A stretch of 64,000 nt of DNA from Minisyncoccota bacterium (GCA_035714785.1 DASTLQ010000011.1:6124-70123), one strand, 5' to 3'. Shown: positions 741-59,055, numbered from the stretch's first letter. A program made the numbers and translations. The notes: a model not told the origin generated them from the sequence alone.

Positions 741-803
741 GTGTAAGGGGACCCCTTACATGTTATCCACAGTGTAAGGGGTCCCCTTGCATGTTATCCA
801 CAG
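741..803. repeat. palindromic repeat family A, two tandem 31-bp units (GTGTAAGGGGWCCCCTTRCATGTTATCCACA)
   Basis: Core palindrome GTAAGGGGACCCCTTAC followed by DnaA-box 9-mer TTATCCACA, twice. Divergent HIT/recJ intergenic region. Confidence 0.9.
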
Positions 804-822
804 GTTGGACGGGTATGGTAGA

Positions 823-2574
823 ATGGCAATTATGCACCAATACGGCGAGCTTTTGAAAAACTTGCTAGAAAATAGAGGCCTCTCTGATGAAAAGCAAGCC
901 GAAATATTCCTAAACCCTAGCTATGAGCGAGATTTTCATGATCCTTTTTTAATGAAAGACATGCAGAAGGCATGTACCCGTATTCTCGAGGCCATTGATA
1001 AAAATGAAAAAACGGTGGTCTATGCTGACTATGACTGTGACGGAATCCCTGGAGCCGTGATCCTAAACGATCTTTTTAAAAAGCTCGGATATGCCAATTT
1101 TGAAATTTATATTCCCGAACGAAATGCTGAGGGGTATGGACTAAACGAAGATGCCTTAAATCAGTTTGCCGAAAGCGGGACTCGGCTCCTCATCACTGTG
1201 GACCTCGGAATTACGGCCAAGGCTGAAGTAGAATACGCAAAGACAAAGGGGATAGATGTGATTATTACCGATCACCATATTCCTCCAGAGTCTTTATCTC
1301 CGGGTGAAAGTGGATTGCCAGATGCGGTGGCGATTTTGAATCCAAAGACAGATGAGTATCCAGAAAAAATGCTCTGCGGGGCAGGAGTGGTTTTTAAGTT
1401 GGCACAGGGTTTGGTAAAAATTTTAGAGATCAAAAGAAGCACGGAAGGAGACGCCGGAGACAAAAAAAGCGGCACGAGCTTGGAAAGCAAAGTTTCCCCT
1501 GGCTGGGAAAAGTGGTTACTCGACATGGCAGGGCTCGCTACTCTTTCGGATATGGTTCCACTTACTGGTGAAAATCGGGCCATCGCGCATTTTGGAATAA
1601 AAGTTTTACGAAAATCCCCTAGGCCGGGTTTGCAAAAACTTTTACAAAAAATGAAAATTGATCAGCGATACCTCACCGCTGACGATTTGGCTTTCATGGT
1701 GACGCCCAAGATTAATGCTGCTTCCCGGATGGATAGTCCTCATCGAGCATACGAGCTTCTTTCGACTGACGATGTGACCGAAGGGGGAGCGCTCGCGGAT
1801 CATCTTTCAAAAATAAACGATGAGAGAAAAACTCTAGTGACCGGCATCATGCGTGAAGTGAATAAAAATTTTGAAAAAAGAAAATTGGAAGAAAAAATAG
1901 GCGACGTGATCGTAATCGGTAATCCGACATGGAAAGTAGGAGTGCTCGGTTTGGTGGCGAGCCGTATCTCGGAAGAATATGAGCGCCCTGTGTTTGTATG
2001 GGGGGCGGACGAAAAAGATTGTATTCGAGGGTCTTGCCGATCTGATGGCTCCGTTTCTTTAGTGGAGCTCATGACGGCTACCCGAGATTGCTTTACCGAG
2101 TTTGGAGGGCACGAGATGGCGGGCGGTTTTTCTTTGGTGCGTGAGAAAGTGCATTTTTTGGAAGAAACTCTTTCGACAGCTTTTGCTAAAGTGAAAAAAG
2201 ATAAAGTCGGTGATCATGTGGCGTATGATATAAAAATGACTCTCCGCGAAGTGAATCGCAGAAACTGGCAGGAGATTGAAAAAATGGAACCCTTTGGTCT
2301 GGGCAATCACAAGCCTGTTTTTCTTTTTGAATCGGTAAAGATAGATGAAGTAAAAAAGTTTGGAAAAAATGGCGGAGAACATTTAGAGATTTCTTTTTCG
2401 GATGCAAGTGGTGGCAGGGTGAAGGCGATTTCATTTTTCTCAGGTGAAGATTCCTTTTCAGCGGCGGGTGCAACTTTGCAAAATGGAGGAGTAGTAAACT
2501 TGATTGCTACTTTCGACCTGTCACGTTTTCGAGGAAGAGAAGAGCTTCGACTCCGGATAGTTGATATAATATAA
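823..2574 (+). CDS. recJ: single-stranded-DNA-specific exonuclease RecJ (DHH/DHHA1)
   Basis: DYDCDGI, ITDHH and GGHEMAGG (DHHA1) motifs. The ORF track start at 787 lies inside the palindromic repeat (MHVIHR derives from ATGTTATCCACAGG), so the start is moved to the ATG at 823. Confidence 0.85.
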   Translation: MAIMHQYGELLKNLLENRGLSDEKQAEIFLNPSYERDFHDPFLMKDMQKACTRILEAIDKNEKTVVYADYDCDGIPGAVILNDLFKKLGYANFEIYIPERNAEGYGLNEDALNQFAESGTRLLITVDLGITAKAEVEYAKTKGIDVIITDHHIPPESLSPGESGLPDAVAILNPKTDEYPEKMLCGAGVVFKLAQGLVKILEIKRSTEGDAGDKKSGTSLESKVSPGWEKWLLDMAGLATLSDMVPLTGENRAIAHFGIKVLRKSPRPGLQKLLQKMKIDQRYLTADDLAFMVTPKINAASRMDSPHRAYELLSTDDVTEGGALADHLSKINDERKTLVTGIMREVNKNFEKRKLEEKIGDVIVIGNPTWKVGVLGLVASRISEEYERPVFVWGADEKDCIRGSCRSDGSVSLVELMTATRDCFTEFGGHEMAGGFSLVREKVHFLEETLSTAFAKVKKDKVGDHVAYDIKMTLREVNRRNWQEIEKMEPFGLGNHKPVFLFESVKIDEVKKFGKNGGEHLEISFSDASGGRVKAISFFSGEDSFSAAGATLQNGGVVNLIATFDLSRFRGREELRLRIVDII

Positions 2575-2615
2575 TCGAGTAAAATATAAAATAAAAAGCC
2601 AGAATAAAAGCAAAA

Positions 2616-3128
2616 ATGAAAAACGAAAAAATCACAATTTATACAGATGGATCAGCACGAGGAAATCCCGGCAAGGCGGGGTGGGGAGTAGTTTTTATTA
2701 GTGGAGATAAGGTGTGGGAGATGGGAGGTAGAAGCGAACATGCTACCAACAATCAAATGGAGCTTACTGCTGCCATTGAGGCCCTTCGACATGTGAAAAA
2801 GAGCAGTGGGGCTAGGGGGGCCACCAGCAAAGAAACTACGGCAAGGAATGGCGCAGAAAACCCCACGGTAGAAATTTTTTCTGATTCTAAATATGTGATT
2901 TTAGGTGTGACCGAATGGATTCATGGATGGATAAAAAATGGATGGAGAAATGCAGCCAAGAAGCCTGTACTAAATCGCGAGCTTTGGGAAGAGTTGCACG
3001 AGCTAAATAAAGAAGTGAAACCAAAATGGTCGTACGTCGCCGGCCACGCCGACAGTGTTTACAACAACCGCGCAGACGAGATTGCTACGAGTTATGCGGA
3101 TAATCTACCAATGAAGCTAAAAACATGA
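2616..3128 (+). CDS. rnhA: ribonuclease HI
   Basis: DGSARGNPG..TNNQMELTAAIEAL..SDSKYV..GHADSVYNNRADEIA catalytic motifs. Carries a ~25 aa Gly/Ala/Thr-rich insertion (SSGARGATSKETTARNGAENPTVE). Confidence 0.85.
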   Translation: MKNEKITIYTDGSARGNPGKAGWGVVFISGDKVWEMGGRSEHATNNQMELTAAIEALRHVKKSSGARGATSKETTARNGAENPTVEIFSDSKYVILGVTEWIHGWIKNGWRNAAKKPVLNRELWEELHELNKEVKPKWSYVAGHADSVYNNRADEIATSYADNLPMKLKT

Positions 3129-3138
3129 TCATGAAAAA

Positions 3139-4659
3139 ATGAGGGACAAAATATTTTATAGTGTATGTTTCGGATTTCTTTTAGGAACGCTTATGCGTTC
3201 TTTTGTTTTTATGGAACCATATATTTTTTTCGTGCTCGCGTGTGGGCTTGCGCTTCTAGGTGTAAGGGGACCCCCTACACCTAGCTTGCATGCAAGGGGT
3301 CCCCTTACCCCCGCCACCTCCTTTGCCCTTCCCCGATTATCTGCCCGAGAGTTCCAGGCCTGTTTATCCGTTATATTTTTATGTTTTGGTTTGGGAGTTC
3401 TCCGGTTCCAATTTGCGGACAAAATGTTCCCGGCCGTTTTTGAAACTATGGCTGAGACAAAGATTGAGATCACTGGCACTATAATAGATGAACCAGACGT
3501 GCGGGAAAATAATCAGAAACTGACTGTCGAGATTTCTAAAGAAAATCAAAAGACTCGCATACTCGTGAATACAGGTTTAGAAAAATATTTTCACTACGGT
3601 GATGAGATTTTTTTGGCGGGCAAATTTGAGAAACCAAAAAATTTTCTTCCAAAAGAAGACGAGCCTGAAGCTCGAGAGTTTGATTATGTTTCGTATCTTC
3701 GAAAAGACGGAATCGGCTATATGATGAATTATCCAAAAATAGAAATTACAGGGAAGGGGAAAGGAAATCCAATCAGAGGATTTCTTTTTAGTACAAAAGA
3801 AAAATTTGTTCACAATATTGCTGTTACCGTGCGGAGCCCTGAGTCACTTCTGCTTGGTGGTCTAATTCTTGGGGAACGATCTTCTTTTGATAAGGAGATG
3901 CGACAAAAATTTATTGACACTGGTACCATCCATATCGTGGCACTTTCTGGATACAATGTCACAATTATTTCTGAGTGGATTATAAAAATATTTTCCTTTC
4001 TTCCACAGGCATTCGCGCTTAGTTTTGGAATCTTGGGAATTATTTTGTTTGTTACGATGACGGGCGGACACGCCACCGCTGTGCGAGCAGGAATCATGGC
4101 AGTACTCGCTCTCATCGCTCGGGCGACGGGGCGCAATTATGATGTAGCTAGAGGAATTGTTTTGGCAGCTGTGGTGATGGTTTTAATAAGCCCGCATGTG
4201 CTCGTCTATGATGTCTCCTTTCAGCTTTCATTCATCGCTACGATAGCTGTTATTTTTGTTTCACCAAAGATGGAAAAATATTTCTTGTGGATTCCTGCTA
4301 AATGGCTTCGCGATATCACGGCCACAACTTTTTCTGCATATATATTTGTACTACCTTTCGTTCTGTATAAAATGGGGAACCTTTCTTTGGTCGCCCTTCC
4401 TGCCAATGTTTTGGTACTGCCTACAATTCCCTTCACTATGGTGCTAGGTTTTATGACAGGGTTTGCAGAAATTTTCTCACCAATCCTCTCTGCTCCTTTT
4501 GCTTACGTTGCATATCTTTTGCTTCATTATCAACTCGGGGTGATAGATTTTTTTGCAAAGATTCCGTTCTCCGCATTTATGGTGCCGAGTTTTTCGTTTG
4601 TTTTTGTATTTCTTACTTACGCAATTTTCGCGTATCTATATTTTAGGAAACGTTCTTGA
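3139..4659 (+). CDS. comEC: ComEC/Rec2 competence channel protein, N-terminal DUF4131 + competence domain (no MBL domain)
   Basis: Multi-pass membrane protein with GTIHIVALSGYNVTII (compare ComEC HLLAISGLH). The N-terminal TM region contains an in-frame copy of the palindromic repeat (3259-3312, ..VRGPPTPSLHARGPLTP..). Confidence 0.7.
   Translation: MRDKIFYSVCFGFLLGTLMRSFVFMEPYIFFVLACGLALLGVRGPPTPSLHARGPLTPATSFALPRLSAREFQACLSVIFLCFGLGVLRFQFADKMFPAVFETMAETKIEITGTIIDEPDVRENNQKLTVEISKENQKTRILVNTGLEKYFHYGDEIFLAGKFEKPKNFLPKEDEPEAREFDYVSYLRKDGIGYMMNYPKIEITGKGKGNPIRGFLFSTKEKFVHNIAVTVRSPESLLLGGLILGERSSFDKEMRQKFIDTGTIHIVALSGYNVTIISEWIIKIFSFLPQAFALSFGILGIILFVTMTGGHATAVRAGIMAVLALIARATGRNYDVARGIVLAAVVMVLISPHVLVYDVSFQLSFIATIAVIFVSPKMEKYFLWIPAKWLRDITATTFSAYIFVLPFVLYKMGNLSLVALPANVLVLPTIPFTMVLGFMTGFAEIFSPILSAPFAYVAYLLLHYQLGVIDFFAKIPFSAFMVPSFSFVFVFLTYAIFAYLYFRKRS
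3259..3312. repeat. palindromic repeat family A copy inside comEC coding sequence (in frame)
   Basis: GGTGTAAGGGGACCCCCTACACCTAGCTTGCATGCAAGGGGTCCCCTTACCCCC; translated VRGPPTPSLHARGPLTP. Confidence 0.85.
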
Positions 4660-5355: not shown

Positions 5356-6252
5356 ATGCCGAACCGTCGAAAAAACTCAAAGGTCCTATACGTCGTGTTT
5401 TTCCTGTTGCTCTTAAATGTGTTCTTATTTGTTCATGATAGGCGGGATTCAGATAGGGGGCTTGTGTTTGCTATGTTGGATGTTGGGCAAGGAGATGCAC
5501 TATATATAGAGTCACCGACTGGCACACAGGTGTTAGTAGATGGAGGACCTCTGCGGAAAATTCTTGGAAAGCTTTCCGAGGTGATGCCTTCGTATGATCG
5601 CAAGATAGATGCCCTCATCATGACTCATTCAGACTCGGATCATATTTCGGGTTTCAGTGAAGTCCTGTCGGCGTATGAGGTTGGACAAATGTTTGAACCG
5701 GGCGTGGCCACTGATTCTCTAATTTATGAAAATCTAAAAAAAGAATTAGAAGAAAAAAAGATTCCAAGCGTGATTGCACGAAAGGGAATGCGACTCCATC
5801 TCGGTGGTGGTGCCGTGATTGATATAATTTTTCCAGATAGAGATGTGTATGATTGGGAGACAAATATGGCCTCTCTAGTTTTGAAACTCACCTATGGAGA
5901 TGTTTCCTTCATGCTCACCGGAGATGCTTTGATCGAAACTGAAGAATTGATTTTAAAAGAAACGCCAGCAGAATTTTTAAAAAGCACATATCTAAAAGCT
6001 GGACATCATGGTTCAAAAACTTCCACTTCGCAGAAATTCGCTGAAGCAGTTTCTCCGGAGTACGCGTTAATTTCTGCGGGAAGGGAGAACAACTACGGCC
6101 ACCCGCATCCCGAGGTTTTAGAGATTTTAAAAAGTATAGGTGCACAGATTTTACGCACTGACCATTCTGGCACCCTGTGGATAAAGTGTAAGGGGACCCC
6201 TTACCCCAACATGCAAGGGGACCCCTTGCATGTTATCCACAGGTTCCTATGA
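5356..6252 (+). CDS. ComEC-type metallo-beta-lactamase domain protein (stand-alone MBL half of ComEC)
   Basis: N-terminal TM, then LDVGQGDALYIESPTGTQVLVDGG and HSDSDHISG (MBL HxHxDH). The C-terminal 20 aa (LWIKCKGTPYPNMQGDPLHVIHRFL) are encoded by the palindromic repeat 6185-6243. Confidence 0.75.
   Translation: MPNRRKNSKVLYVVFFLLLLNVFLFVHDRRDSDRGLVFAMLDVGQGDALYIESPTGTQVLVDGGPLRKILGKLSEVMPSYDRKIDALIMTHSDSDHISGFSEVLSAYEVGQMFEPGVATDSLIYENLKKELEEKKIPSVIARKGMRLHLGGGAVIDIIFPDRDVYDWETNMASLVLKLTYGDVSFMLTGDALIETEELILKETPAEFLKSTYLKAGHHGSKTSTSQKFAEAVSPEYALISAGRENNYGHPHPEVLEILKSIGAQILRTDHSGTLWIKCKGTPYPNMQGDPLHVIHRFL
6185..6243. repeat. palindromic repeat family A copy forming the 3' coding tail of the ComEC-MBL ORF
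   Basis: AGTGTAAGGGGACCCCTTACCCCAACATGCAAGGGGACCCCTTGCATGTTATCCACAGG. Confidence 0.85.
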
Positions 6253-9652: not shown

Positions 9653-11371
9653 ATGAAAGAAGAAATAAAAAAAATAATAAACGAAGCACTGCGAGAGCTT
9701 AAAATAGAAGAGACGGATTTTGCCGTGGAGCATCCAGCTGATTTAAAAAACGGGGACTACTCTGTAAACGTAGCAATGGTTTTAGCAAAACAGCTTGGCT
9801 CCAATCCTCGCGAACTTGCCGAACAGATCGCCCAAAGTGTAAGGGGTCAACATGTAAGGGGACCCCTTACCCCTGAACATGCAAGGGGTCCCCTTACACG
9901 TTATCCACAGGTTGAAAAGGTGGAGGTGGCTGGGGCGGGGTTTTTGAATTTCTATCTTTCGAGAAAATTTTTTGCGGATTCCATAGCGGAGATATTGGAA
10001 AAGAATGATAATTTTGGAAAAAACGAAGAAGGTAAAGGGAAAAAAGTAATAATAGAATATTCTTCCCCAAACATTGCAAAGCCTTTCACTATAGGACATT
10101 TGCGTTCTACTATTATTGGTCACGCCTTGGCTAATATTTTTGAATATAACGGATATGAAGTGCTTCGAGACAATCACCTCGGGGATTGGGGGACACAATT
10201 TGGAAAGCTGATCGTAGCCATCAAGCGATATGGTAATGAAGAAGAAATAGGAAAAGCCGAAAGACCAGTAAAAGCGCTCACAGAACTATATGTAAAATTT
10301 CATGCCGAGGCTGAGAAAGATAAAACATTAGAAGACGAAGCGAGAGCATGGTTTACAAAGCTTGAACAAGGAGATAAAGAAGCTAGAGCCATCTGGCAAA
10401 AGTGTGTAGATTGGTCAATGACAGAATTTTCAAAAATATATGAAAGATTAGGTGCTTCTTTTGATATGACTTTGGGAGAAAGTTTTTTTGAAGACAAAAT
10501 GAAAACAGTGATAGAGGATTTGGAGAAGACTGATTTTTATAAAGAATCAGAAGGAGCAAAACTTGTTTTCTTTCCTGACGAAAAACATCCTCCACTCATG
10601 ATACAAAAAAAAGATGGCAGTACTTTGTATGGGACTCGTGACCTTGCTACCGATAAATATAGGAGGGATACTTGGAACCCAGACTTAGTAGTAAACGAAG
10701 TAGGAATGGAGCAGTCATTATATTTCAAACAGCTTTTTGAAGTAGAAGAAATGCTTGGATATTTTAAAAAAGAACAAAGAGTCCACGTAGCTCATGGTCT
10801 GTATAAATTTAAAGAAGGAAAAATGAGTACCAGAAAAGGAAATGTAATCTGGCTTGAAGACGTGCTTGATGAAGCAAAAAAAAGAGCAGGCAAAATTAAT
10901 GAAGAGACAGCGGAAGTGGTAGGCATAGGGGCGATAAAATTTAATGACCTTCGAAGTGAAAGTCGAAAAGATATTATATTCAACTGGGGGGACATTTTGA
11001 ATTTGGATGGAGACTCTGGTCCTTATGTACAGTATTCGTACGTCCGCACAAAGGCGATAGAAAATAAGGCAAAAGAATTGGGAATAGAAAAAAGCATCGC
11101 TCAGCCAACCGAGGAGATATTTGAGATTGAGAAACTGCTGTATCGTTTTCCGGAAGTGGTATCTCGTGCACGGGAAACTTACGCTCCGCATGTCATCGCT
11201 CAATATCTTTTAGAAGTGGCACACGAATTCAGTTCGTTTTATGGAAATACTCAAGTATTGAAAGAGGAAGATCCTTTCTCTCCGTATAAGCTTGCCGTGG
11301 TCGAAGCGACAGGTATCGTAATCAAAAAAGGCCTTTGGATCCTCGGCATCCAGACCCCCGAAAAAATGTAA
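9653..11371 (+). CDS. argS: arginine--tRNA ligase, with an in-frame palindromic-repeat insertion
   Basis: Arg_tRNA_synt_N (..EKVEVAGAGFLNFYL), class I core (SSPNIAKPFTIGHLRST) and DALR anticodon-binding domain. Bases 9836-9911 are a copy of the GTAAGGGGWCCCCTTAC/TTATCCACA repeat read in frame as RGQHVRGPLTPEHARGPLTRYPQ. Confidence 0.9.
   Translation: MKEEIKKIINEALRELKIEETDFAVEHPADLKNGDYSVNVAMVLAKQLGSNPRELAEQIAQSVRGQHVRGPLTPEHARGPLTRYPQVEKVEVAGAGFLNFYLSRKFFADSIAEILEKNDNFGKNEEGKGKKVIIEYSSPNIAKPFTIGHLRSTIIGHALANIFEYNGYEVLRDNHLGDWGTQFGKLIVAIKRYGNEEEIGKAERPVKALTELYVKFHAEAEKDKTLEDEARAWFTKLEQGDKEARAIWQKCVDWSMTEFSKIYERLGASFDMTLGESFFEDKMKTVIEDLEKTDFYKESEGAKLVFFPDEKHPPLMIQKKDGSTLYGTRDLATDKYRRDTWNPDLVVNEVGMEQSLYFKQLFEVEEMLGYFKKEQRVHVAHGLYKFKEGKMSTRKGNVIWLEDVLDEAKKRAGKINEETAEVVGIGAIKFNDLRSESRKDIIFNWGDILNLDGDSGPYVQYSYVRTKAIENKAKELGIEKSIAQPTEEIFEIEKLLYRFPEVVSRARETYAPHVIAQYLLEVAHEFSSFYGNTQVLKEEDPFSPYKLAVVEATGIVIKKGLWILGIQTPEKM
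9836..9911. repeat. palindromic repeat family A copy inserted in frame in argS
   Basis: AGTGTAAGGGGTCAACATGTAAGGGGACCCCTTACCCCTGAACATGCAAGGGGTCCCCTTACACGTTATCCACAGG. Confidence 0.85.
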
Positions 11372-11374
11372 CGT

Positions 11375-11498
11375 GCAAAGTGCAAGGGGGCTGTGGATAA
11401 CATGTAAGGGGACCCCTTACACTTTATCCACACATACCACCCTTACCTGTGGATAACATGCAAGGGGACCCCTTACCCCTTATCCCGGCGCCCCTTAC
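11375..11498. repeat. cluster of family A repeat units with four DnaA-box 9-mers (argS-ileS intergenic)
   Basis: ..GTGCAAGGGGGCTGTGGATAACATGTAAGGGGACCCCTTACACTTTATCCACACATACCACCCTTACCTGTGGATAACATGCAAGGGGACCCCTTACCCCTTATCCCGGCGCCCCTTAC.. Confidence 0.9.
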
Positions 11499-11524
11499 GT
11501 GCGGATTTATGCTATTATTTTTGA

Positions 11525-20243: not shown

Positions 20244-20246
20244 TAA

Positions 20247-20340
20247 AGTGTAAGGTGTAAGGGGCCCGGCGCAGGGTAAGGGGTCCCCTTACACTTTATC
20301 CACACCCTGTGGATAACATGCAAGGGGACCCCTTACCCCT
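20247..20340. repeat. family A repeat cluster (M16 peptidase-metG intergenic)
   Basis: GTGTAAGGTGTAAGGGGCCCGGCGCAGGGTAAGGGGTCCCCTTACACTTTATCCACACCCTGTGGATAACATGCAAGGGGACCCCTTACCCC. Confidence 0.9.
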
Positions 20341-20344
20341 AAAT

Positions 20345-21778: not shown

Positions 21779-21848
21779 GGTAAGGGGTCCCCTTACACTT
21801 TATCCACACCCTGTGGATAACATGCAAGGGGACCCCTTACCCTTACAC
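21778..21848. repeat. family A repeat (metG-tatD intergenic)
   Basis: GGGTAAGGGGTCCCCTTACACTTTATCCACACCCTGTGGATAACATGCAAGGGGACCCCTTACCCTTACAC. Nearly identical to the 20280-20340 copy. Confidence 0.9.
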
Positions 21849-35980: not shown

Positions 35981-36052
35981 ATGTAAGGGGACCCCTTACA
36001 CCTAAACCTGTGGATAACATGCAAGGGGACCCCTTACATGTTTCCCTTACAT
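35981..36052. repeat. family A repeat (gpmI-ATPase intergenic)
   Basis: ATGTAAGGGGACCCCTTACACCTAAACCTGTGGATAACATGCAAGGGGACCCCTTACATG. Confidence 0.9.
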
Positions 36053-38848: not shown

Positions 38849-39006
38849 GGGGACCCCTTCAAGGGTCCACCTTCGCCAGAGGCGAAGGCGGACCCTTACC
38901 TGTGGATAACATGCAAGGGGACCCCTTACACTTTATCCACCTGTGGATAACATGCAAGGGGACCCCTTCAAGGGTCCACCTTCACCAGAGGCGAAGGCGG
39001 ACCCTT
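38843..39006. repeat. composite repeat cluster: family A units + two copies of family B GC-rich hairpin (AAGGGTCCACCTTCRCCAGAGGCGAAGGCGGACCCTT)
   Basis: GTGTAAGGGGACCCCTTC-AAGGGTCCACCTTCGCCAGAGGCGAAGGCGGACCCTT-ACCTGTGGATAACATGCAAGGGGACCCCTTACACTTTATCCACCTGTGGATAACATGCAAGGGGACCCCTTC-AAGGGTCCACCTTCACCAGAGGCGAAGGCGGACCCTT. Confidence 0.9.
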
Positions 39007-39936: not shown

Positions 39937-40314
39937 ATGGAAAGGAAAAAATTAGGAATACCGTTGGTAATACTCGTTTTTTTTATACTGTTCATCAACT
40001 ATGTGGCGATGAAGTTTCATTGGTATTCTGCTCTTCCATGGTTTGATATGCCCATGCATTTTCTGGGAGGATTCTGGGTAGCTCTTTTGGTTGCATTTAT
40101 TCTACCTAGTCGACACTTTTCTATACATTTTGTTTTAAAAATACTTGCTGGCGTTCTTTTGATCGGCATACTGTGGGAAATTTTTGAAGTGACATTAAAT
40201 ACTATTACCGTAAAAGATACTTTCGACATGGTGGACACTTTGTCGGATCTTTTCTTCGATATCGTTGGTGGCTTGGCTGCTACGCTAGTTCTTTATCGTA
40301 GCTCCAAAGTGTAA
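39937..40314 (+). CDS. VanZ-like family small membrane protein
   Basis: 125 aa, 3-4 TM. DMPMHFLGGF and WEIFEVTL..DTFDMVDTLSDLFFDIVGG resemble VanZ-family motifs. The stop TAA is supplied by the adjacent repeat. Confidence 0.5.
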   Translation: MERKKLGIPLVILVFFILFINYVAMKFHWYSALPWFDMPMHFLGGFWVALLVAFILPSRHFSIHFVLKILAGVLLIGILWEIFEVTLNTITVKDTFDMVDTLSDLFFDIVGGLAATLVLYRSSKV

Positions 40315-40390
40315 GGGGACCCCTTGCATGTTAAGGGTCCACCTTCGCCTCTGGCGAAGGCGGACCCTTGGGCGAAGGTGGACCCTTAAC
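40309..40390. repeat. family A unit + family B hairpin(s) (VanZ-like/beta-CASP intergenic)
   Basis: GTGTAAGGGGACCCCTTGCATGTT-AAGGGTCCACCTTCGCCTCTGGCGAAGGCGGACCCTTGGGCGAAGGTGGACCCTTAAC. Confidence 0.9.
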
Positions 40391-40411: not shown

Positions 40412-41773
40412 ATGACAAATGCCAAAATTACTTTCTGCGGAGGAGCAGGAACGGTGACAGGAGCAAACTTTCTTTTTGAAATAGATAATAAAAAAATATT
40501 AATAGACTGCGGGCTGACTCAATCTGCAAAAATCGCGGACGATGTAAACTGGAGTCCTTTTCCATACGATGCAAAGGAGATTGATATTCTCTTTGTTTCG
40601 CATGCCCATATTGACCATATAGGTAGAATTCCCAAGCTTATTCATGAAGGTTTTCGAGGAGAAATTTATTCTACCAAGCCCACCCACGATTTGGCTCACC
40701 CAATGCTCGAAGACACCGCCGGAATTCTTTCTAAGAACGAAAAACTACATCTCGAGGAAATTTATTCTGATGAAAATCTAAATACCACTGCTTCTCTTTG
40801 GAAAAGTTTCGACTATAGTGAAAAAATCAAGGTTAGCGAGGAAGTGGAAGTGCAATTTCTGAATGCGGGACATATTTTAGGGTCAGCTATGATTTTATTT
40901 ACCTACAAGGGCAAAAAGATTCTCTTTACAGGAGACCTTGGAAACAGTCCGTCACCGCTTTTGCCTGATACCGAGCATATTGAGGACATCGACTACATGG
41001 TCATGGAAAGTGTTTATGGAGATCGCAATCATGAATCTCGTGATGAGCGCCGAAAAAAGCTCGAGGAAGTGATTGAGGATAATTATAAAAGAAAAGGAGT
41101 GCTGATCATTCCTACTTTTTCTCTAGAGCGTTCTCAAGAATTACTTTTTGAGCTGAACAATCTCGTAGAAGGGAAGCGTATTCCTGTAATGCCAGTTTTC
41201 TTAGATTCCCCTCTAGCTATTCGCCTCACTGAAATTTTTAAAAAATATAAGGACTATTTTAATGATGATGCTCAGAGAATAATGACTCACGATCCGCATC
41301 TTTTTGATTTTCCTGGGCTAAAATTTACCCTCGAAGCAGATGAATCCAAACAGATTGAAAAAACACCGAATCCAAAGATAATTATTGCTGGCTCAGGGAT
41401 GTCTTCTGGGGGAAGAGTGGTGCATCACGAAAGACACTTTCTGCCAGACCCAAACAATACCTTGCTTTTGACGGGATATCAGGTGGTGGGCAGTCCGGGT
41501 AGGTTGATTCAAGAAGGTCTAAAAACCGTTAAGATTACGGGAGAATATGTAGATGTGCGATCTCATGTTGCCACCATTTACGGATATTCAGGTCACAAAG
41601 ATTCTGATGGCCTCCTTCGATTTATTCAAGAAAAAAGAGAACATCTAAAAAAAGTTTTTGTAGTGATGGGGGAGCCGAAGTCCTCTATGTTTTTGGTGCA
41701 AAAAATTCGCGACAATCTAGGCATCGAAGCCCATGCCCCTGAGCAGGATGACAGTGTCGTCCTAGAATTCTAG
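40412..41773 (+). CDS. MBL-fold beta-CASP ribonuclease (RNase J/CPSF-like RNA-metabolising metallo-beta-lactamase)
   Basis: SHAHIDHIG motif 2; beta-CASP region; C-terminal RMMBL-like (GYSGHKD). Confidence 0.8.
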   Translation: MTNAKITFCGGAGTVTGANFLFEIDNKKILIDCGLTQSAKIADDVNWSPFPYDAKEIDILFVSHAHIDHIGRIPKLIHEGFRGEIYSTKPTHDLAHPMLEDTAGILSKNEKLHLEEIYSDENLNTTASLWKSFDYSEKIKVSEEVEVQFLNAGHILGSAMILFTYKGKKILFTGDLGNSPSPLLPDTEHIEDIDYMVMESVYGDRNHESRDERRKKLEEVIEDNYKRKGVLIIPTFSLERSQELLFELNNLVEGKRIPVMPVFLDSPLAIRLTEIFKKYKDYFNDDAQRIMTHDPHLFDFPGLKFTLEADESKQIEKTPNPKIIIAGSGMSSGGRVVHHERHFLPDPNNTLLLTGYQVVGSPGRLIQEGLKTVKITGEYVDVRSHVATIYGYSGHKDSDGLLRFIQEKREHLKKVFVVMGEPKSSMFLVQKIRDNLGIEAHAPEQDDSVVLEF

Positions 41774-41782
41774 CTAGGGTTG

Positions 41783-41866
41783 GGGTAAGGGGTCCCCTTG
41801 CATGTTATCCACAGGTAAGGGTGGTGGGTGTGGATAAAGTGTAAGGGGTCCCCTTACACCTTACTT
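41783..41866. repeat. family A repeat pair (beta-CASP/LOG intergenic)
   Basis: GGGGTAAGGGGTCCCCTTGCATGTTATCCACAGGTAAGGGTGGTGGGTGTGGATAAAGTGTAAGGGGTCCCCTTACACC. Confidence 0.9.
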
Positions 41867-41883
41867 TTTGCTATAATATAAAT

Positions 41884-51983: not shown

Positions 51984-52070
51984 ACATGCAAGGGGACCTG
52001 TGGATAACATGCAAGGGGACCCCTTACACTTTATCCACACCCACTAACATGCAAGGGGACCCCTTACACC
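51984..52070. repeat. family A repeat cluster (HD hydrolase/recG convergent intergenic)
   Basis: CATGCAAGGGGACCTGTGGATAACATGCAAGGGGACCCCTTACACTTTATCCACACCCACTAACATGCAAGGGGACCCCTTACACC. Confidence 0.9.
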
Positions 52071-54262
52071 TATTCGAAATGAAACTCTTTCAGTTTTTCT
52101 TTGACGCGGGCTTTTAGATTTGGGTATTTTTTAAGCTCGGGGTCTTGACTGATGAGGCGGACGGCTTCGGTGCGAGCAGCTTCTACCATTTTTAAATTTT
52201 TAATAGCTTCCATGGCGAGGTCGGATACGCCCCACTGCTTTCCGCCCGAGAGTTCGCCTGCGCCACGCAACGTGAGATCAAGCTCCGCTAATTCGAAACC
52301 ATTTTTTGCAGTTTTTAGGGCTTTAAGTCGGTCCATTGTTTTTTGTGATTTGGCTTCAGCAAAAACATAGCAGTATGCCTGATCAGAACTTCTGATCACT
52401 CGGCCTCGAAGCTGATGAAGCTGGGCTAGTCCAAATCTTTCAGCCCCTTCTATTATTATGACGGTGGCATTTGGTACGTTTACTCCTACTTCCACCACTG
52501 ATGTCGCGCACAGTATATGAATCTTTCCATCTGAAAAATCTTTCATCACTTCTTCTTTTTTTTGTTTACTCATCTTGCTGTGTAGCACCCCGATTTCATA
52601 ATCAGGGAAAACCTCTTTTTTTAGTCGCTTTGCTTCTGCTACAGCGGATTTCGCAAGAAGTGCCATCTCTTTTTCTGGGTCTGGTTCAAATATTCGAGGA
52701 CATATTACATATAGCTGTCGGCCTTCACCGAGTTCGCGGTGAATTTTTTCATAAGTGGCATCTCTTTTTTCGGGTGTAACTATTTCTGTGATGATTGGTT
52801 TTCTACCAGAAGGCATTTCGTCTAGTAAAGATAGATCGAGGTCGCCGTAAATAGTGAGAGCGAGAGTGCGGGGAATAGGGGTGGCTGTCATGGACAGGAG
52901 ATGTGGAGCAACCTGTACTCCCTCAGAATCTTTTCGCACAAGTTTTCGTCGCTGAGCAGTTCCAAAACGATGCTGTTCGTCTATCACTGCAAAAGCAAGA
53001 TTTTTAAATTTTACAGTTTTTTGAATGAGAGCATGTGTTCCAATTAAAATTGGAATCTCACCGCCTGCCACCCATTTCAAAAGCTGGGTGCGGGAAATAT
53101 CGGTCCAGCCCACTGTGCCTCTGCCAGCGGAAACCTTTGAGGGAAACTTTCGGCAACCCGAACCCGTCAGGAGCCCAATGTTTATAGGCATATGAGCGAA
53201 ATTTTTTATAAAAGATTCAAAATGCTGGGCAGCGAGTATTTCTGTAGGAGCCATATATGCTACTTGCAAACCCCTGCGAAGCCCTTTGGATGTCTTTTGA
53301 TTTACGATGGCATGAGCAGCTGCGGCAGCTACGGCTGTTTTTCCAGATCCTACATCTCCTTCGAGTAGTCTCGACATGGGAATATCTTTTTGAATGTCGG
53401 CGAGAATAGTGTCGATCGATTTTTTTTGCGAAGCAGTGAGCTCAAAAGGAAAGCGCTTTAGAAATTCGTCCACTTCTTCCTTTGCGGAGCTAATTTTGAA
53501 AGATTTATTTTTTCTATATTCCATTCTGTCGTGTTGTCGTTCGAGCTGGATGAAAAAAACTTCTTCGAAAGCAAATCTTTTTCTAGCGGACTCTGCATCT
53601 TTTGGATTTTTTGGAGTATGAACCCAGATGAGTGCAGATTTCAAAGAAGGGAGATGGTATGTTTTTAAGATTTCTTCGGGAATATAGTCCTCAATATCCT
53701 CTAGAGTTTTGTCCTTAAAGATTTTTAGAATAGTGTGATATATCCATCGAGAAGTGATACCTTTCGTCTCAGGATATACAGGAAAAGAAAATCCTCTGTT
53801 TTCGCTTTCACCGTTTTCATTTTTAAAAAGAGTGTCATGTGAATCAATAGGCATGTAAGCAACTTTTTCAAATTCTGGATTGGCTAGATACAGGCCATAC
53901 TTTCCCTCGGTCACATGTCCGGAAAGTTTTACATTTTCACCTTCGTGAATCATTTTGGCGAGGTACGCTTGATTGAACCATATTATTTTTATCTTACCCG
54001 AAAGATCTTCGATCTCCGCTTCTCCCATGGGAATTTTTGTCTTGAACCCCTTTTTTGTTTTAAGCTTGGAAACTCTTCCGTAAACTGTGGCCGTTTCTCC
54101 AGCCACTAGCTCGCTAATATTTTTAATTTCCCTGATATCGCTATACCTAGAAGGGAAATAGAAAAGAAGGTCCTGTACAGTCGCAAGACCTAATTTCTTC
54201 AAGGCTTTCTTTTGTTTTTCATCCAGTCGGAATTTGGCTTCCAATTTATCGTGGAGGTTCAT
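52070..54262 (-). CDS. recG: ATP-dependent DNA helicase RecG
   Basis: N-terminal wedge/OB domain. Helicase motifs GDVGSGKT, DEQHRFG and QLHQLRGRVIRS; 730 aa. Confidence 0.93.
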   Translation of the reverse strand: MNLHDKLEAKFRLDEKQKKALKKLGLATVQDLLFYFPSRYSDIREIKNISELVAGETATVYGRVSKLKTKKGFKTKIPMGEAEIEDLSGKIKIIWFNQAYLAKMIHEGENVKLSGHVTEGKYGLYLANPEFEKVAYMPIDSHDTLFKNENGESENRGFSFPVYPETKGITSRWIYHTILKIFKDKTLEDIEDYIPEEILKTYHLPSLKSALIWVHTPKNPKDAESARKRFAFEEVFFIQLERQHDRMEYRKNKSFKISSAKEEVDEFLKRFPFELTASQKKSIDTILADIQKDIPMSRLLEGDVGSGKTAVAAAAAHAIVNQKTSKGLRRGLQVAYMAPTEILAAQHFESFIKNFAHMPINIGLLTGSGCRKFPSKVSAGRGTVGWTDISRTQLLKWVAGGEIPILIGTHALIQKTVKFKNLAFAVIDEQHRFGTAQRRKLVRKDSEGVQVAPHLLSMTATPIPRTLALTIYGDLDLSLLDEMPSGRKPIITEIVTPEKRDATYEKIHRELGEGRQLYVICPRIFEPDPEKEMALLAKSAVAEAKRLKKEVFPDYEIGVLHSKMSKQKKEEVMKDFSDGKIHILCATSVVEVGVNVPNATVIIIEGAERFGLAQLHQLRGRVIRSSDQAYCYVFAEAKSQKTMDRLKALKTAKNGFELAELDLTLRGAGELSGGKQWGVSDLAMEAIKNLKMVEAARTEAVRLISQDPELKKYPNLKARVKEKLKEFHFE

Positions 54263-57852: not shown

Positions 57853-57909
57853 TGGTTGTGTTTTCAGTATACACTCAAAAAACCAAGACACAAGCAGGGT
57901 AAGAGTTTA

Positions 57910-57974
57910 GGTGTAAGGGGACCCCTTACCCTGTGGATAACATGCAAGGGGTCCCCTTACATGTTATCCACAGG
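57910..57974. repeat. family A composite 45-bp near-perfect palindrome (two inverted DnaA boxes around the core)
   Basis: GGTGTAAGGGGACCCCTTACC-CTGTGGATAACATGCAAGGGGTCCCCTTACATGTTATCCACAGG. Confidence 0.9.
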
Positions 57975-57976
57975 TT

Positions 57977-58588
57977 TCATTTATTCTTTTTGTATTTGTG
58001 GTTTAAAAAAGTGATGAGAGGGGGAAGAATTGATAGAAAGATAATAACTAAAACTATCGGCAAAAGATAATCGCTCGCATTCGGAATTATTTCTCCTAAA
58101 AAGTATCCAACGAGAGTGACTCCTATGCCCCAAATCATCCCACCGACAATATTGTAAGTGACAAAAATTTTGTAGGGCATATTGCCGGCTCCAGCTACGA
58201 TTGGAGCAAAAGTACGAACGATTGGAATGAAGCGGGCGATGATGATGGTTTCCTTGCCGTGCTTTTTGTAAAATTCTTCCGCATGAAATAGGTGTTTTTT
58301 CTGAAACCAGAATGAATCATCTTTATTGAAGATTCTAGGTCCGACTTTTCTTCCAAACCAATAGCCGACTTGGTCGCCAGCAATTGCCGCGATGAAGATT
58401 AAAAGTACAAGAGGAACAATTTCAAAATATCCACTTGATGCTAAAAGTCCTGCAGTGAAAAGTAGACTGTCGCCGGGTAGAAAAAAACCAAAAAAAAGTC
58501 CGGACTCCGCAAATACGATTAGAAATATTCCAATATAGCCGGCAGTCTTTGCAAAAGCCATCAAGTCGAAGTGAAAAAGTAATTCCAT
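57977..58588 (-). CDS. DedA family membrane protein
   Basis: GYIGIFLIVFAESGLFFGFFLPGDSLLFTAG DedA/SNARE-associated signature; 203 aa. Confidence 0.85.
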   Translation of the reverse strand: MELLFHFDLMAFAKTAGYIGIFLIVFAESGLFFGFFLPGDSLLFTAGLLASSGYFEIVPLVLLIFIAAIAGDQVGYWFGRKVGPRIFNKDDSFWFQKKHLFHAEEFYKKHGKETIIIARFIPIVRTFAPIVAGAGNMPYKIFVTYNIVGGMIWGIGVTLVGYFLGEIIPNASDYLLPIVLVIIFLSILPPLITFLNHKYKKNK

Positions 58589-58611
58589 CCCGCAATTATA
58601 TCATACGGGTT

Positions 58612-58645
58612 AGGTGTAAGGGGACCCCTTGCATGTTATCCACAG
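58612..58645. repeat. family A single unit (dedA/hypothetical divergent intergenic)
   Basis: GGTGTAAGGGGACCCCTTGCATGTTATCCACAG. Confidence 0.9.
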
Positions 58646-58676
58646 TTTTTTTATTTAGATAGAGTATAATTCTTAT

Positions 58677-59033
58677 ATGGTTGATCCCGAACTCATTTCG
58701 TACATAAGAAGCGCTATGTCAGAAGGACAGGCGAAAGAAAAAATCCTTGCAGATTTAGAGTCGCACGGGTGGGCAAAGGAAGAGATTGCTGAAGCATATA
58801 CTCGTATCGAGAATCCACTTGCTTTAGAAGTACCTGAAAGAGTTCCACACTTTAGAAAAGACCGTCCATTTCTATGGCTCAAAGTTTTAATTCCATTTCT
58901 TATTTTACTCGCGCTGATTTTTCTTGCAGTTCAATACTATTTTGAAGACGTAATGGTTTTTCTAGGTATTTCGCCTGAAGCGCTGGGGGAAATCATTGAC
59001 GAAAACCTTCAAATGCTCAAAAATTCTATCTAG
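58677..59033 (+). CDS. hypothetical protein with C-terminal TM helix
   Basis: 118 aa; no motif; stop codon abuts the palindromic repeat. Confidence 0.4.
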   Translation: MVDPELISYIRSAMSEGQAKEKILADLESHGWAKEEIAEAYTRIENPLALEVPERVPHFRKDRPFLWLKVLIPFLILLALIFLAVQYYFEDVMVFLGISPEALGEIIDENLQMLKNSI

Positions 59034-59055
59034 GTGTAAGGGGTCCCCTTACCCC
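59033..59055. repeat. family A core palindrome only (convergent intergenic, comF 3' end)
   Basis: GGTGTAAGGGGTCCCCTTACCCC. Confidence 0.8.

What the first reader, a model, noticed from the sequence alone, without database searches (positions are those of the whole stretch)
741..59055. Genome-wide palindromic repeat family carrying perfect DnaA-box 9-mers (GTAAGGGGWCCCCTTAC + TTATCCACA)
At about 15 loci in 64 kb the same element recurs at gene boundaries: 741, 3259, 6185, 9836, 11375, 20247, 21778, 35981, 38843, 40309, 41783, 51984, 57910, 58612, 59033. Its core is a 17-bp perfect palindrome GTAAGGGG(A/T)CCCCTTAC. The core is usually flanked on one or both sides by ATGTTATCCACAG, that is the consensus DnaA box TTATCCACA in inverted orientation. 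The full unit is therefore a ~45-bp near-perfect palindrome CTGTGGATAACATG-YAAGGGGWCCCCTTRC-ATGTTATCCACAG (best seen at 57925-57972). I count about 21 perfect TTATCCACA/TGTGGATAA 9-mers in the window against ~0.5 expected by chance, and every one sits inside this repeat. The behaviour resembles REP/BIME, Correia, RPE or HIP-type elements, but with a replication-initiator binding site embedded. The elements could be dispersed DnaA titration sites (datA-like), binding sites of another palindrome-recognising dimeric protein, transcription-terminating cruciforms, or a miniature mobile element.
Basis: seen in the sequence. Interest (0 to 1): 0.9.

Follow-up and report, generated by a model that had tools for sequence, protein, structure and literature searches.

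The report
Hairpin repeats carrying DnaA boxes
A tiny-genome candidate-phyla bacterium (Paceibacterota) is peppered with a previously undescribed family of nested hairpin repeats. They sit right after stop codons and even in frame inside two genes, and each carries perfect copies of the binding site of the replication initiator DnaA.

Summary
The window holds 28 copies of the palindromic core AAGGGGWCCCC in the 15 listed loci (0 expected). It holds 22 perfect DnaA-box 9-mers (0.5 expected), all inside those loci. The organism is a Candidatus Paceibacterota (CPR) bacterium. Three syntenic relatives have no copy at all, including one whose SHMT protein is 88% identical. Six loci that are filled here are empty there.

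The family is a mosaic. A 17-bp hairpin core is extended by arms, and two arm types carry TTATCCACA. Cores usually occur as inverted doublets that fold into hairpins of about 30 bp. Copies abut or contain the stop codon of the upstream gene. One lies between two divergent -10 boxes. Two are in frame inside ArgRS and ComEC. One replaces the C-terminus of a metallo-beta-lactamase protein. No transposase lies in the window and there is no consistent target duplication.

Best reading: a lineage-specific, recently amplified REP/BIME/REPIN-like selfish palindromic element that has an RPE-like habit of sitting in ORFs. Its arms carry a constrained DnaA box. That box probably binds DnaA, but binding is untested. 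I could not check genome-wide spread, the transposase or DnaA binding.

The parts
736..806 (.). Cluster 1: two cores (745, 776), each followed by CATG-TTATCCACA (tandem units). It lies between the divergent extended -10 boxes of the HIT gene (-) and recJ (+).
   Evidence: The alignment with relative L156 shows 80 extra nt exactly here.
3255..3312 (+). Cluster 2: two cores (3264, 3294) without a DnaA box. The first is flanked by CTAG on both sides. Read in frame inside ComEC (peptide VRGPPTPSLHARGPLTP).
   Evidence: Ten ComEC homologues (55-61% identical) lack 20 residues here, while the N-terminus MRDKIFY is conserved.
6170..6246 (+). Cluster 3: box-core ... core-box, with the boxes on the outside. 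It encodes the last 25 residues (LWIKCKGTPYPNMQGDPLHVIHRFL) of the metallo-beta-lactamase (ComEC C-terminal-type) gene.
   Evidence: In relative L156, 55 native nt between the conserved GGCACC and TGATAnA stand where the window has 77 nt of repeat.
9834..9913 (+). Cluster 4: half core + core + core-box, in frame inside ArgRS (peptide SVRGQHVRGPLTPEHARGPLTRYPQ) in a loop of the N-terminal domain.
   Evidence: E. coli ArgRS has an 18-residue gap here. (11 homologues lack 16-18 residues). (relative L156 has 33 nt, TEINRLNTDENI, where the window has 78 nt).
11375..11500 (.). Cluster 5: orphan half core, box-core-box, orphan CCCTTAC, box-core, then degenerate pieces. It lies between the ArgRS stop and the ileS extended -10 box.
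20244..20341 (.). Cluster 6: degenerate left pieces followed by a 69-nt doublet (core-box CCC box-core). It starts directly after the TGA stop of the M16 peptidase gene and ends 4 nt before the metG ATG.
   Evidence: D5 family, 99% identical to cluster 7. (-29 kcal/mol as DNA). (-49.6 kcal/mol as RNA). (native C-terminus kept; relatives have no repeat).
21776..21848 (.). Cluster 7: the same 69-nt doublet. The TAG stop of metG is its first triplet. It ends 2 nt before the tatD ATG.
35978..36052 (.). Cluster 8: core, then box-core, then an orphan CCCTTAC. The TAG stop of the phosphoglycerate mutase gene is at its left edge.
38838..39006 (.). Cluster 9: three cores, two (plus one overlapping, imperfect) DnaA boxes and two copies of the second palindrome P2 (AAGGGTCCACCTTCGCC-AGA-GGCGAAGGCGGACCCTT). 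The TAA inside the first core is the stop of the upstream 923-residue gene.
   Evidence: (D7).
40304..40389 (.). Cluster 10: one core plus a P2 palindrome with a duplicated right arm. The TAA inside the core is the stop of the upstream 125-residue ORF.
41771..41868 (.). Cluster 11: core-box, orphan GTAAGGG, box-core, orphan CCTTAC. This is the inverse orientation of the cluster 6/7 doublet. It is the only copy that scores as terminator-like.
51984..52072 (.). Cluster 12: half core, box-core-box, core. It lies between the convergent HD-domain gene and recG. The recG TAG stop lies in the right arm.
57897..57975 (.). Cluster 13: a core followed by the 47-nt near-perfect palindrome ACCCTGTGGATAACATGCAAGGGGTCCCCTTACATGTTATCCACAGGT. 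It starts 1 nt after the stop of the VTT-domain gene (-), upstream of the SAM riboswitch of metK.
58609..58646 (.). Cluster 14: a single core with one box arm, between divergent gene starts.
   Evidence: The Logan contig L139 starts inside this core.
59029..59060 (.). Cluster 15: a single core without a box, flanked by CTAG on both sides. Each CTAG supplies the TAG stop of one of two convergent genes.

Best explanation
This is a lineage-specific, recently amplified family of nested palindromic repeats. It is a REP/BIME/REPIN-like selfish hairpin element in a Candidatus Paceibacterota (CPR) genome.

The building block is the hairpin GYAAGGGG-W-CCCCTTRC. It is extended outwards in steps: first to AACATG-core-CATGTT, then to ACCTGTGGATAACATG-core-CATGTTATCCACAGGT. 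The outer arms carry the consensus DnaA box. Units mostly occur as inverted doublets that can fold, as single-stranded DNA or as RNA, into one long hairpin with the DnaA boxes base-paired in the stem.

Inferred mechanism. Copies spread by copy-and-paste without a regular target duplication. They probably move as single-stranded hairpins at the replication fork, by a Y1/RAYT-type enzyme or by template switching. They often land in or beside existing copies, which would explain the half cores split at the loop. In this very compact genome only a few positions survive. These are directly after stop codons (the element itself contains TAG and TAA in one frame), between divergent extended -10 promoters, and in two open frames inside tolerant protein loops.

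The 9-bp box is held constant while its flanks differ. So it is a functional part of the element, most likely bound by DnaA as a host factor or as a tolerated side effect. A by-product is about 0.34 perfect DnaA boxes per kb, which should sequester DnaA.

Shown: the anatomy, the enrichment, the absence from relatives, the filled versus empty sites, the in-frame copies, the folding energies and the invariance of the box. Inferred: the mode of spread, DnaA binding and any titration.
For: - Enrichment: 28 cores against 0 expected and 22 boxes against 0.52 expected.
- Copy-paste identity: two 69-nt doublets at unrelated sites are 99% identical.
- Doublet organisation and long hairpins: -20 to -29 kcal/mol as DNA, z -5.6 to -9.7 for the long hairpins (weaker, -1.4 to -3.4, for clusters 2 and 15).
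- Orphan half cores occur only at repeat loci, next to arm ends.
- Lineage specificity: syntenic relatives L134-L138 and L156 have no core, no GGGGWCCCC and no TTATCCACA (one GGGWCCC occurs in L156). nhmmer finds full units only in this organism. 185,579 species genomes gave only 12 scattered single cores.
- Filled versus empty sites: HIT/recJ spacer, ArgRS loop, MBL 3' end, ComEC, M16/metG and metG/tatD.
- Stop codons are in or within 3 nt of the element at 11 of 13 adjacent gene ends.
- There is no canonical terminator tail and no Rfam family.
- Box constraint: the arm subfamilies xCC-TGTGGATAA-CATGC (n=15) and GGG-TGTGGATAA-AGTGT (n=6, plus one hybrid arm) differ at 5 of 7 flanking positions and at 0 of 9 box positions. 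My hypergeometric estimate is about 0.005.
- Known REP families share the dimers in opposite orientation, the location downstream of ORFs and the intragenic copies (PMC3733652).
Against: - No transposase of any kind is encoded in the 64 kb. The rest of the genome could not be reached.
- The defining REP tag (unpaired GTAG or CGTC) is absent.
- At three filled sites the repeat replaces native sequence rather than simply interrupting it. This fits insertion plus deletion, but also recombination or conversion.
- No strain-level presence/absence polymorphism is available, so current activity is unknown.
- The invariance of the box could reflect selection for a stable distal stem, or simply the youth of the family, rather than DnaA binding.
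- The DnaA of this organism and its box preference are unknown.
- YTAG/CTAR at the edge of 8 loci hints at a DDE-type target instead.
Confidence: 0.6

Rival explanations
1. Host-selected DnaA sites. In this reading the repeats exist because the cell uses them. In duplex form they would be dispersed high-affinity titration sites (datA-like). In single-stranded form they would be DnaA-box hairpins on the lagging-strand template that load the replicative helicase (A-site / ABC-primosome-like). They could also serve DnaA-dependent transcription control next to promoters.
For: - There are 22 perfect consensus boxes and none outside the repeats.
- The box is invariant between two arm subfamilies whose flanks differ.
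- In the folded forms the box is double-stranded in the stem, like the M13 A-site hairpin. That hairpin binds DnaA and loads DnaB (PMC6127211, citing Masai 1990 and Carr & Kaguni 2002).
- Several boxes lie 10-20 nt upstream of extended -10 promoters.
Against: - Nine of 28 cores and 3 of 15 loci have no box, so the core spreads without it.
- Close relatives manage with zero such sites.
- The mosaic, nested and truncated architecture, and the copies inside ORFs, look like selfish spread rather than designed sites.
- There is no binding data, and the organism's DnaA was not seen.
Confidence: 0.15
2. Miniature inverted-repeat transposable element of a DDE transposon, moved by cut-and-paste or copy-paste by a transposase encoded elsewhere in the genome. 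The arms would be its terminal inverted repeats. The DnaA box would act as a host-factor site, as in the Tn5/IS50 outside end (from memory).
For: - The units have perfect terminal inverted symmetry.
- YTAG/CTAR lies at the outer edge of 8 loci. CTAG lies on both sides of the units at 3255-3283 and 59029-59060, and at the latter each CTAG serves as the stop of one convergent gene. This is what a 4-bp duplication of a shared CTAG would give.
- IS5 duplicates YTAR (PMC5009759).
Against: - Units ending in box arms have no flanking direct repeat at all.
- YTAG is equally well explained as part of one arm type (YTAGGTGT). Because CTAG is itself a palindrome, it cannot be told apart from palindrome extension.
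- Units of 21-47 bp are far shorter than known MITEs.
- No IS or transposase is present in the window.
Confidence: 0.12
3. RNA-level host function. The hairpins would be transcribed inside operons. There they could protect upstream mRNA 3' ends, stall ribosomes at the stop codon, or be cut by RNase III to release downstream cistrons with a 5' end close to the AUG. That last effect would suit an organism that starts most genes leaderless.
For: - The elements fill the stop-to-start spacers of co-directional genes. They end 2-5 nt before the ATG of metG and tatD, which have no promoter of their own.
- RNA hairpins reach -49.6 kcal/mol with about 30 bp of stem.
- Known REPs are often transcribed and sit just after stops (PMC3733652).
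- Extended -10 boxes lie 6-7 nt before the ATG at 8 genes.
Against: - Relatives with the same operons have no hairpins.
- Copies also lie between divergent promoters, between convergent genes and inside ORFs.
- This reading does not explain a perfect DnaA box.
- There is no covariation: all copies are near-identical. There is no transcript data.
Confidence: 0.08
4. DNA uptake sequence. This would be a species-specific motif recognised by the competence machinery and accumulated by biased uptake and recombination. Inverted pairs downstream of genes would resemble Neisseria DUS and Haemophilus USS (from memory).
For: - ComEC, ComF and pilM/N/O are in the window.
- The density, about 0.4 per kb, is similar to USS/DUS.
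- The motif is species-specific and absent from relatives.
- Inverted pairs lie downstream of genes.
Against: - Copies share long identical composite units of up to 69 nt, together with nested and truncated pieces. Motif accumulation by point mutation does not produce that.
- Almost no copies lie in coding DNA, although coding DNA makes up more than 90% of the window.
Confidence: 0.04

Closest known systems
REP / BIME / REPIN elements of Proteobacteria (E. coli, Pseudomonas), mobilised by RAYT transposases
   Same: Both are short GC-rich imperfect palindromes in high copy. They occur mostly as pairs in opposite orientation that fold into a longer hairpin. They are placed just downstream of ORFs and between convergent genes, with occasional intragenic copies. 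There is no target duplication. The family is species-specific and built as a mosaic of units and linkers.
   Different: This family has no unpaired GTAG or CGTC tag (GTAA is paired here). No RAYT was seen. The host is a CPR bacterium with a very small genome. The arms carry a DnaA box. Units are nested inside one another.
RIP / RIB elements (BIME-1 with an IHF site between two inverted REPs) - from memory
   Same: Both have a host DNA-binding-protein site built into the linker of a REP doublet and repeated around the chromosome.
   Different: The embedded site here is the DnaA box rather than IHF, and it lies in the hairpin stem rather than in an unpaired linker.
Rickettsia palindromic elements (RPE) - from memory
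   Same: Both are selfish palindromic repeats in a reduced genome that survive in frame inside protein-coding genes and add a peptide segment (here in ArgRS and ComEC).
   Different: RPEs are 100-150 bp and mostly intragenic. Here units are 17-70 bp and mostly fill spacers. There is no sequence similarity.
Correia / NEMIS elements of Neisseria - from memory
   Same: Both are dispersed inverted-repeat elements with an embedded host-factor site (IHF) and effects on neighbouring promoters and mRNA processing.
   Different: Correia elements are 100-155 bp with 26-bp terminal repeats and a TA duplication. No such regular duplication is seen here.
A site / ABC primosome hairpin (DnaA box in the stem of a single-stranded DNA hairpin; Masai 1990, Carr & Kaguni 2002, as cited in PMC6127211)
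   Same: Both are single-strand hairpins whose stem contains a consensus DnaA box.
   Different: The A site is a single plasmid-derived priming signal tested in vitro. Here there are dozens of chromosomal copies and no functional test.
datA, DARS and Bacillus DnaA-box clusters - from memory
   Same: All are non-origin chromosomal loci with consensus DnaA boxes that can bind DnaA.
   Different: Those are one to six unique loci with several boxes each and are conserved between species. Here there are many dispersed 1-3-box copies of a young repeat that relatives lack.

Membership tests
REP/BIME/REPIN | Short (20-40 bp) imperfect palindrome present in many copies, mainly extragenic | tested here: met
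   28 cores in 15 loci within 64 kb; 12 loci are extragenic.
REP/BIME/REPIN | Units paired in opposite orientation and able to fold into a larger hairpin | tested here: met
   12 of 15 loci hold 2-3 cores. The doublets fold at -25 to -29 kcal/mol as DNA.
REP/BIME/REPIN | Unpaired GTAG or CGTC tag at one end of the stem (PMC3733652) | tested here: not met
   The cores begin with GTAA or GCAA, paired with TTAC. There is no GTAG or CGTC at the foot.
REP/BIME/REPIN | A RAYT (Y1 HUH transposase) gene in the genome, flanked by REPs | not testable with these tools
   None was found among about 60 genes of the window. The rest of the genome was unreachable.
MITE | Terminal inverted repeats plus a regular target-site duplication | tested here: inconclusive
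   Inverted termini are present. CTAG lies on both sides at only 2 loci, YTAG on one side at 6 more, and nothing at the ends formed by box arms.
MITE | A parent IS with the same termini | not testable with these tools
   No IS is present in the window, and the genome is not available.
Rickettsia palindromic element-like (in-frame intragenic repeat) | A repeat copy inside an intact ORF, in frame, and absent from orthologues | tested here: met
   ArgRS; ComEC.
Intrinsic terminator | A GC-rich hairpin followed by a T run | tested here: not met
   Only the core at 41839-41859 qualifies in the 35-53 kb scan. The sequences of the other copies show no T run, except at 58646.
DnaA-binding site (DnaA box) | A match to the 9-bp consensus TTATCCACA | tested here: met
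   22 exact matches.
DnaA-binding site (DnaA box) | Binding by the cognate DnaA | not testable with these tools
   No dnaA gene lies in the window. This needs EMSA or ChIP.
Rfam RNA family | A match to a curated covariance model | tested here: not met
   Only tmRNA, two tRNAs and a SAM riboswitch were found.
DNA uptake sequence | A short motif scattered through coding and non-coding DNA without conserved long flanks | tested here: not met
   All motif copies sit in composite units at 15 loci, with no isolated copies.

The most novel reading that the evidence does not exclude
The repeats would be a chromosome-wide system of DnaA-box hairpins in an ultra-small bacterium. As duplex DNA, the roughly 0.34 perfect boxes per kb would buffer free DnaA and so tie initiation to the amount of DNA already replicated. 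As hairpins extruded on the lagging-strand template, they would act like the A site of the ABC primosome. DnaA could then reload the helicase away from oriC, giving a built-in restart system spread by a selfish element and later kept by the host.
Probability: 0.12. Interest if true: 0.85.

Novelty: new variant of a known kind. Interest (0 to 1): 0.6.

Why it matters
CPR/Patescibacteria genomes are regarded as streamlined and poor in mobile DNA. Here a young palindromic family makes up about 2% of the sequence and about a quarter of the intergenic DNA. It rewrites stop codons and C-termini and adds peptides to an aminoacyl-tRNA synthetase and to the DNA-uptake channel. That makes it a clear case of selfish DNA shaping a minimal genome.

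The perfect, constrained DnaA box built into the arms is unusual. I found no dispersed repeat family with a DnaA box in the searchable literature. If DnaA binds, the element changes the cell's budget of initiator sites by hundreds of copies. It also offers a natural test of titration and of DnaA-box-hairpin helicase loading.

There is a practical point too. These repeats break short-read assemblies of such genomes, as the Logan contigs that end inside cores show.

Tried and rejected
- **Distribution scans.** The genome-contig scan with the exact core gave only 12 scattered single hits in unrelated taxa. So the source genome is not in that collection, and no species genome carries the family. 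Its hits were single hairpins at roughly chance level, plus an unrelated LTR-like family. No second scan was allowed. Two viral scans found nothing of the family.
- **Finding more of the genome.** A search with concatenated repeat-encoded peptides returned nothing. Look-ups of the HIT protein (two start codons) and of the annotated MetRS gave no record. So I could not reach the remaining 9 kb of the contig or any other contig.
- **Rfam.** No family matched the repeat.
- **Terminator reading.** Rejected for lack of T runs.
- **Promoter -35 reading.** Rejected. The distance from the element to the -10 box is not constant, and promoters here are of the extended -10 type.
- **Complementary central W in doublets.** Tested as a sign of long-hairpin selection. 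It holds in 6 of 11 doublets against 0.43 expected, so there is no signal.
- **Strand bias of asymmetric units.** GC...AC occurs 10 times and its complement 4 times. This is suggestive only.
- **Matched stem extensions on single cores.** Usually not matched, so there is no covariation evidence.
- **DNA alignment of the ComEC 5' region with L156.** Uninformative. The protein alignment was used instead.

Full report
**1. Observation**

The pattern GTAAGGGGWCCCCTTAC, with up to two mismatches, occurs 27 times (11 exact). No shuffle of the window gave any. The shorter AAGGGGWCCCC gives 28 cores. Eleven loci have two cores, one has three and three have one.

TTATCCACA occurs 22 times, 11 on each strand, against 0.52 expected. 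All 22 lie in 12 of those loci. The relaxed TTATNCACA adds none. An nhmmer profile of the 22 'box arm + core' units finds 58 hits in the window, all inside the 15 loci. The clusters cover 1,248 nt, which is 1.95% of the window and about a quarter of its roughly 5.4 kb of intergenic DNA.

The repeat is not an artefact. Two contigs from an independent assembly of run SRR10492801 are identical to the window over 5.2 and 5.0 kb. They carry internal copies and end inside cores, as expected for a dispersed repeat.

**2. Organism and context**

The genes are housekeeping genes of a small genome: recJ, RNase H, comEC, glyA, several aminoacyl-tRNA synthetases, recO, recA, ftsK, ftsH, smpB/tmRNA, recG, metK and pilMNO. 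The MetRS is 100% identical to a protein of a 'MAG TPA: Candidatus Paceibacterota bacterium' on a 73,168-bp contig. The next best hits, at 75% and 73%, are Paceibacterota/Nomurabacteria.

No transposase, dnaA gene or origin is in the window, and GC skew is uniformly positive. Most genes start 6-7 nt after an extended -10 box (TGnTAnAAT), so they are leaderless.

**3. Anatomy**

The core is a hairpin with a 5-7-bp stem and a 3-nt loop. Next to it come a few arm types:
- A1: ACC-TGTGGATAA-CATG-Y
- A2: GGG-TGTGGATAA-AGTG-T
- A3: YTAGGTGT
- A4: GGGGT
- Truncated arms AACATGY and AAAGTGT, which stop at the same point two bases into the box.

So the family is a nested palindrome. The core is 17 bp. 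AACATG-core-CATGTT is about 29 bp. ACCTGTGGATAACATG-core-CATGTTATCCACAGGT is 47 bp.

The full 47-mer is seen once in near-perfect form (57929-57975; -20.1 kcal/mol as DNA, z = -8.5). It is seen three times as A1-core-A2, which has a symmetric internal loop. More often two cores, each with one box arm, lie in inverted order. The 69-nt doublets at 20273-20341 and 21777-21845 are 99% identical. Each folds into one long hairpin (-29 kcal/mol as DNA, -49.6 as RNA) with the two DnaA boxes paired near the tip.

Orphan half cores occur only at repeat loci. They are joined directly to the outer end of a box arm, as at 11382, 41815, 51988 and 9839. This looks as if a unit had entered the loop of an older hairpin.

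A second palindrome (P2) has the same foot, AAGGG...CCCTT. It accompanies the cores at 38864, 38973 and 40333.

One asymmetry is conserved. GCAAGGGG...CCCCTTAC, which has a C.A mismatch at the foot, occurs 10 times on the + strand and 4 times as its complement.

**4. Position relative to genes**

Twelve loci are intergenic, but they are not placed at random. At 11 of 13 adjacent gene ends the stop codon lies inside the element or within 3 nt of it:
- The TAG of arm A3/A4 ends metG, the phosphoglycerate mutase gene, recG, an unknown ORF and comF.
- The TAA inside GTAAGGGG ends two genes.
- TGA is followed at once by an arm in two more.

MetRS and the M16 peptidase keep the same C-termini as their orthologues. 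So in those two cases the element starts right after the native stop.

Cluster 1 sits exactly between the two divergent extended -10 boxes of the HIT gene and recJ.

Three loci lie in ORFs:
- **ArgRS.** The 78-nt cluster at 9834-9913 is read in frame as SVRGQHVRGPLTPEHARGPLTRYPQ. E. coli ArgRS and 11 database homologues have a gap of 16-18 residues there.
- **ComEC.** The conserved N-terminus MRDKIFY shows that the ORF starts at 3139 and reads through the cluster at 3255-3312. Ten homologues lack 20 residues at that point.
- **Metallo-beta-lactamase gene.** Its last 25 residues are encoded by cluster 3.

Both internal copies use the same frame, GTA AGG GGn CCC CTT. The third frame contains TAA.

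**5. Relatives**

Three sets of syntenic contigs from related Paceibacterota were fetched:
- L134/L135 (MetRS 75% identical; 33% GC)
- L136-L138 (MetRS 73%; 35% GC)
- L156 (SHMT 88%, RecJ 69%, HIT 64% identical; 36% GC)

Gene order matches the window. None has a core, a GGGGWCCCC or a TTATCCACA (L156 has a single GGGWCCC), and L134 has no other repeat family either.

Direct alignments give empty sites:
- The HIT/recJ spacer is 36 nt in L156 and has 80 extra nt in the window.
- In ArgRS, 33 nt encoding TEINRLNTDENI stand where the window has 78 nt.
- At the MBL 3' end, 55 native nt between the conserved GGCACC and TGATAnA stand where the window has 77 nt of repeat.

So in two cases the element replaces native sequence rather than only interrupting it.

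A scan of one genome for each of 185,579 species gave only 12 isolated cores in unrelated taxa. That is fewer than my rough equal-base expectation of about 70. The viral collection has none of the family. The metagenome scan was cut off at 120 rows and showed only isolated hairpins and an unrelated LTR-like family.

The family is therefore specific to this lineage, as far as could be tested.

**6. What it is**

The evidence points to a selfish, recently amplified palindromic repeat of the REP/BIME/REPIN kind. The supporting features are:
- near-identical copies at unrelated sites;
- inverted doublets;
- nested and truncated pieces;
- no regular target duplication;
- absence from relatives;
- survival only in harmless positions, including open frames.

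Published REP families share several of these traits. They form dimers in opposite orientation, lie mainly downstream of ORFs and between convergent genes, and have intragenic copies (PMC3733652).

The in-frame copies recall Rickettsia palindromic elements (from memory).

Membership in the REP superfamilies is not established. The defining unpaired GTAG or CGTC tag is absent, and no RAYT could be looked for outside the window.

A MITE reading has some support. YTAG/CTAR lies at the edge of 8 loci. CTAG lies on both sides of two units, and at one of them each CTAG serves as the stop of a convergent gene. IS5 duplicates YTAR (PMC5009759). Against this, ends formed by box arms show no duplication, and CTAG may simply be part of arm A3.

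Only one core looks like an intrinsic terminator, and no Rfam family matches.

**7. The DnaA box**

The 9-mer equals the consensus box. This rests on established knowledge; the E. coli R1 box is used in the A-site assays described in PMC6127211.

It is perfect in 22 of about 24 box arms. The two arm subfamilies differ at 5 of the 7 positions flanking the box, on both sides, and at none of the 9 box positions. My hypergeometric estimate is about 0.005. So the box itself is constrained.

This fits protein binding. It could also reflect the need for a stable distal stem, or the youth of the family.

In the folded forms the box is double-stranded. A single-strand hairpin with a DnaA box in its stem is a known substrate on which DnaA loads DnaB, namely the A site of the ABC primosome (PMC6127211).

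However, nine cores and three loci lack a box. The arms without a box are truncated at a fixed point inside it. So the core spreads without the box, and the box belongs to an outer layer of the palindrome.

I found no paper with these sequences, no report of REP-like families in CPR bacteria and no dispersed repeat family with DnaA boxes.

**8. Verdict**

The finding is real. The repeat family is new as far as I could search. It is best classed as a new variant of the REP/BIME type: a nested palindrome in a CPR genome, with an RPE-like habit of sitting in ORFs and a constrained DnaA box in its arms.

The mode of spread and DnaA binding are inferred, not shown. The most novel reading the evidence leaves open is that the copies work as dispersed DnaA-box hairpins, either titrating DnaA or loading the helicase away from oriC. 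I give that about 12%.

Noticed in passing
window 11525-15076 (residues ~513-685 of the product); also L134:140-2374 and L136:1-570: The isoleucyl-tRNA synthetase (a MupA-like, eukaryote-type IleRS) carries a histidine-phosphatase (His_Phos_1 / alpha-ribazole phosphatase-like) domain inserted in the middle of the enzyme. The same architecture is listed for the orthologues in two related Paceibacterota contigs, so it is conserved in the clade.
   Followed up: partly
window 51306-51379: A tRNA-Ile with anticodon TAT (UAU), an uncommon way to read AUA. It overlaps the end of an upstream ORF call and the start of the HD-domain ORF call.
   Followed up: no
window 815-834, 6249-6267, 11505-11527, 36061-36079, 40396-40414, 41868-41886, 58660-58679; L156:7735-7757 and 12858-12879: Most genes start 6-7 nt after an extended -10 box (TGnTAnAAT) with no Shine-Dalgarno sequence. 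This indicates leaderless mRNAs. The pattern is shared with relative L156.
   Followed up: partly
window 3139-6252; L156:9897-12857: ComEC is split. The competence/DUF4131 part and the metallo-beta-lactamase part are separate genes, with a superoxide dismutase gene on the opposite strand between them. The same arrangement is found in relative L156.
   Followed up: partly
window 20244-20344 versus L134:8257-9345 and L136:8932-9999: Relatives have an AI-2E family transporter gene between the M16 peptidase gene and metG. The window lacks it. In its place there is only the repeat cluster with a GC-rich remnant (GGGGCCCGGCGCAGG).
   Followed up: partly
window 38864-38900, 38973-39006, 40333-40389: A second palindrome family, AAGGGTCCACCTTCGCC-AGA-GGCGAAGGCGGACCCTT, has the same foot as the main core and is always joined to a core. 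At 40333 its right arm is duplicated.
   Followed up: partly
whole window versus L134-L138, L156: The window has 40-46% GC. The syntenic relatives have 33-36%. The lineage with the repeats has therefore shifted in base composition.
   Followed up: no
L085, L121, L062, L103 and many Ga0153xxx / Ga0157xxx loci: An unrelated family ends in ...GGAGTCATGTGTAAGGGGTCCCCTTACA. Two copies lie 5.4-5.8 kb apart on several metagenome contigs. This looks like the terminal repeats of a larger mobile element, possibly an LTR element with TG...CA ends.
   Followed up: no
window 33519-33698 and 30138-30254: Tandem 90-nt and 78-nt coding repeats (78-90% identical) lie in two large secreted proteins with peptidoglycan-binding domains.
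   Followed up: no
window 36077-38848: A 923-residue protein with weak TraG/TrwB (type IV coupling protein) matches is bracketed by repeat clusters on both sides. Its stop codon is the TAA inside a core.
   Followed up: no
L005:2819, L005:3495, L011:6609 (Patiriisocius MAG): A Flavobacteriia MAG holds three copies of a longer hairpin, CATGTGTAAGGGGWCCCCTTACACATG, which contains the same 17-mer. This may be a small independent hairpin family.
   Followed up: no
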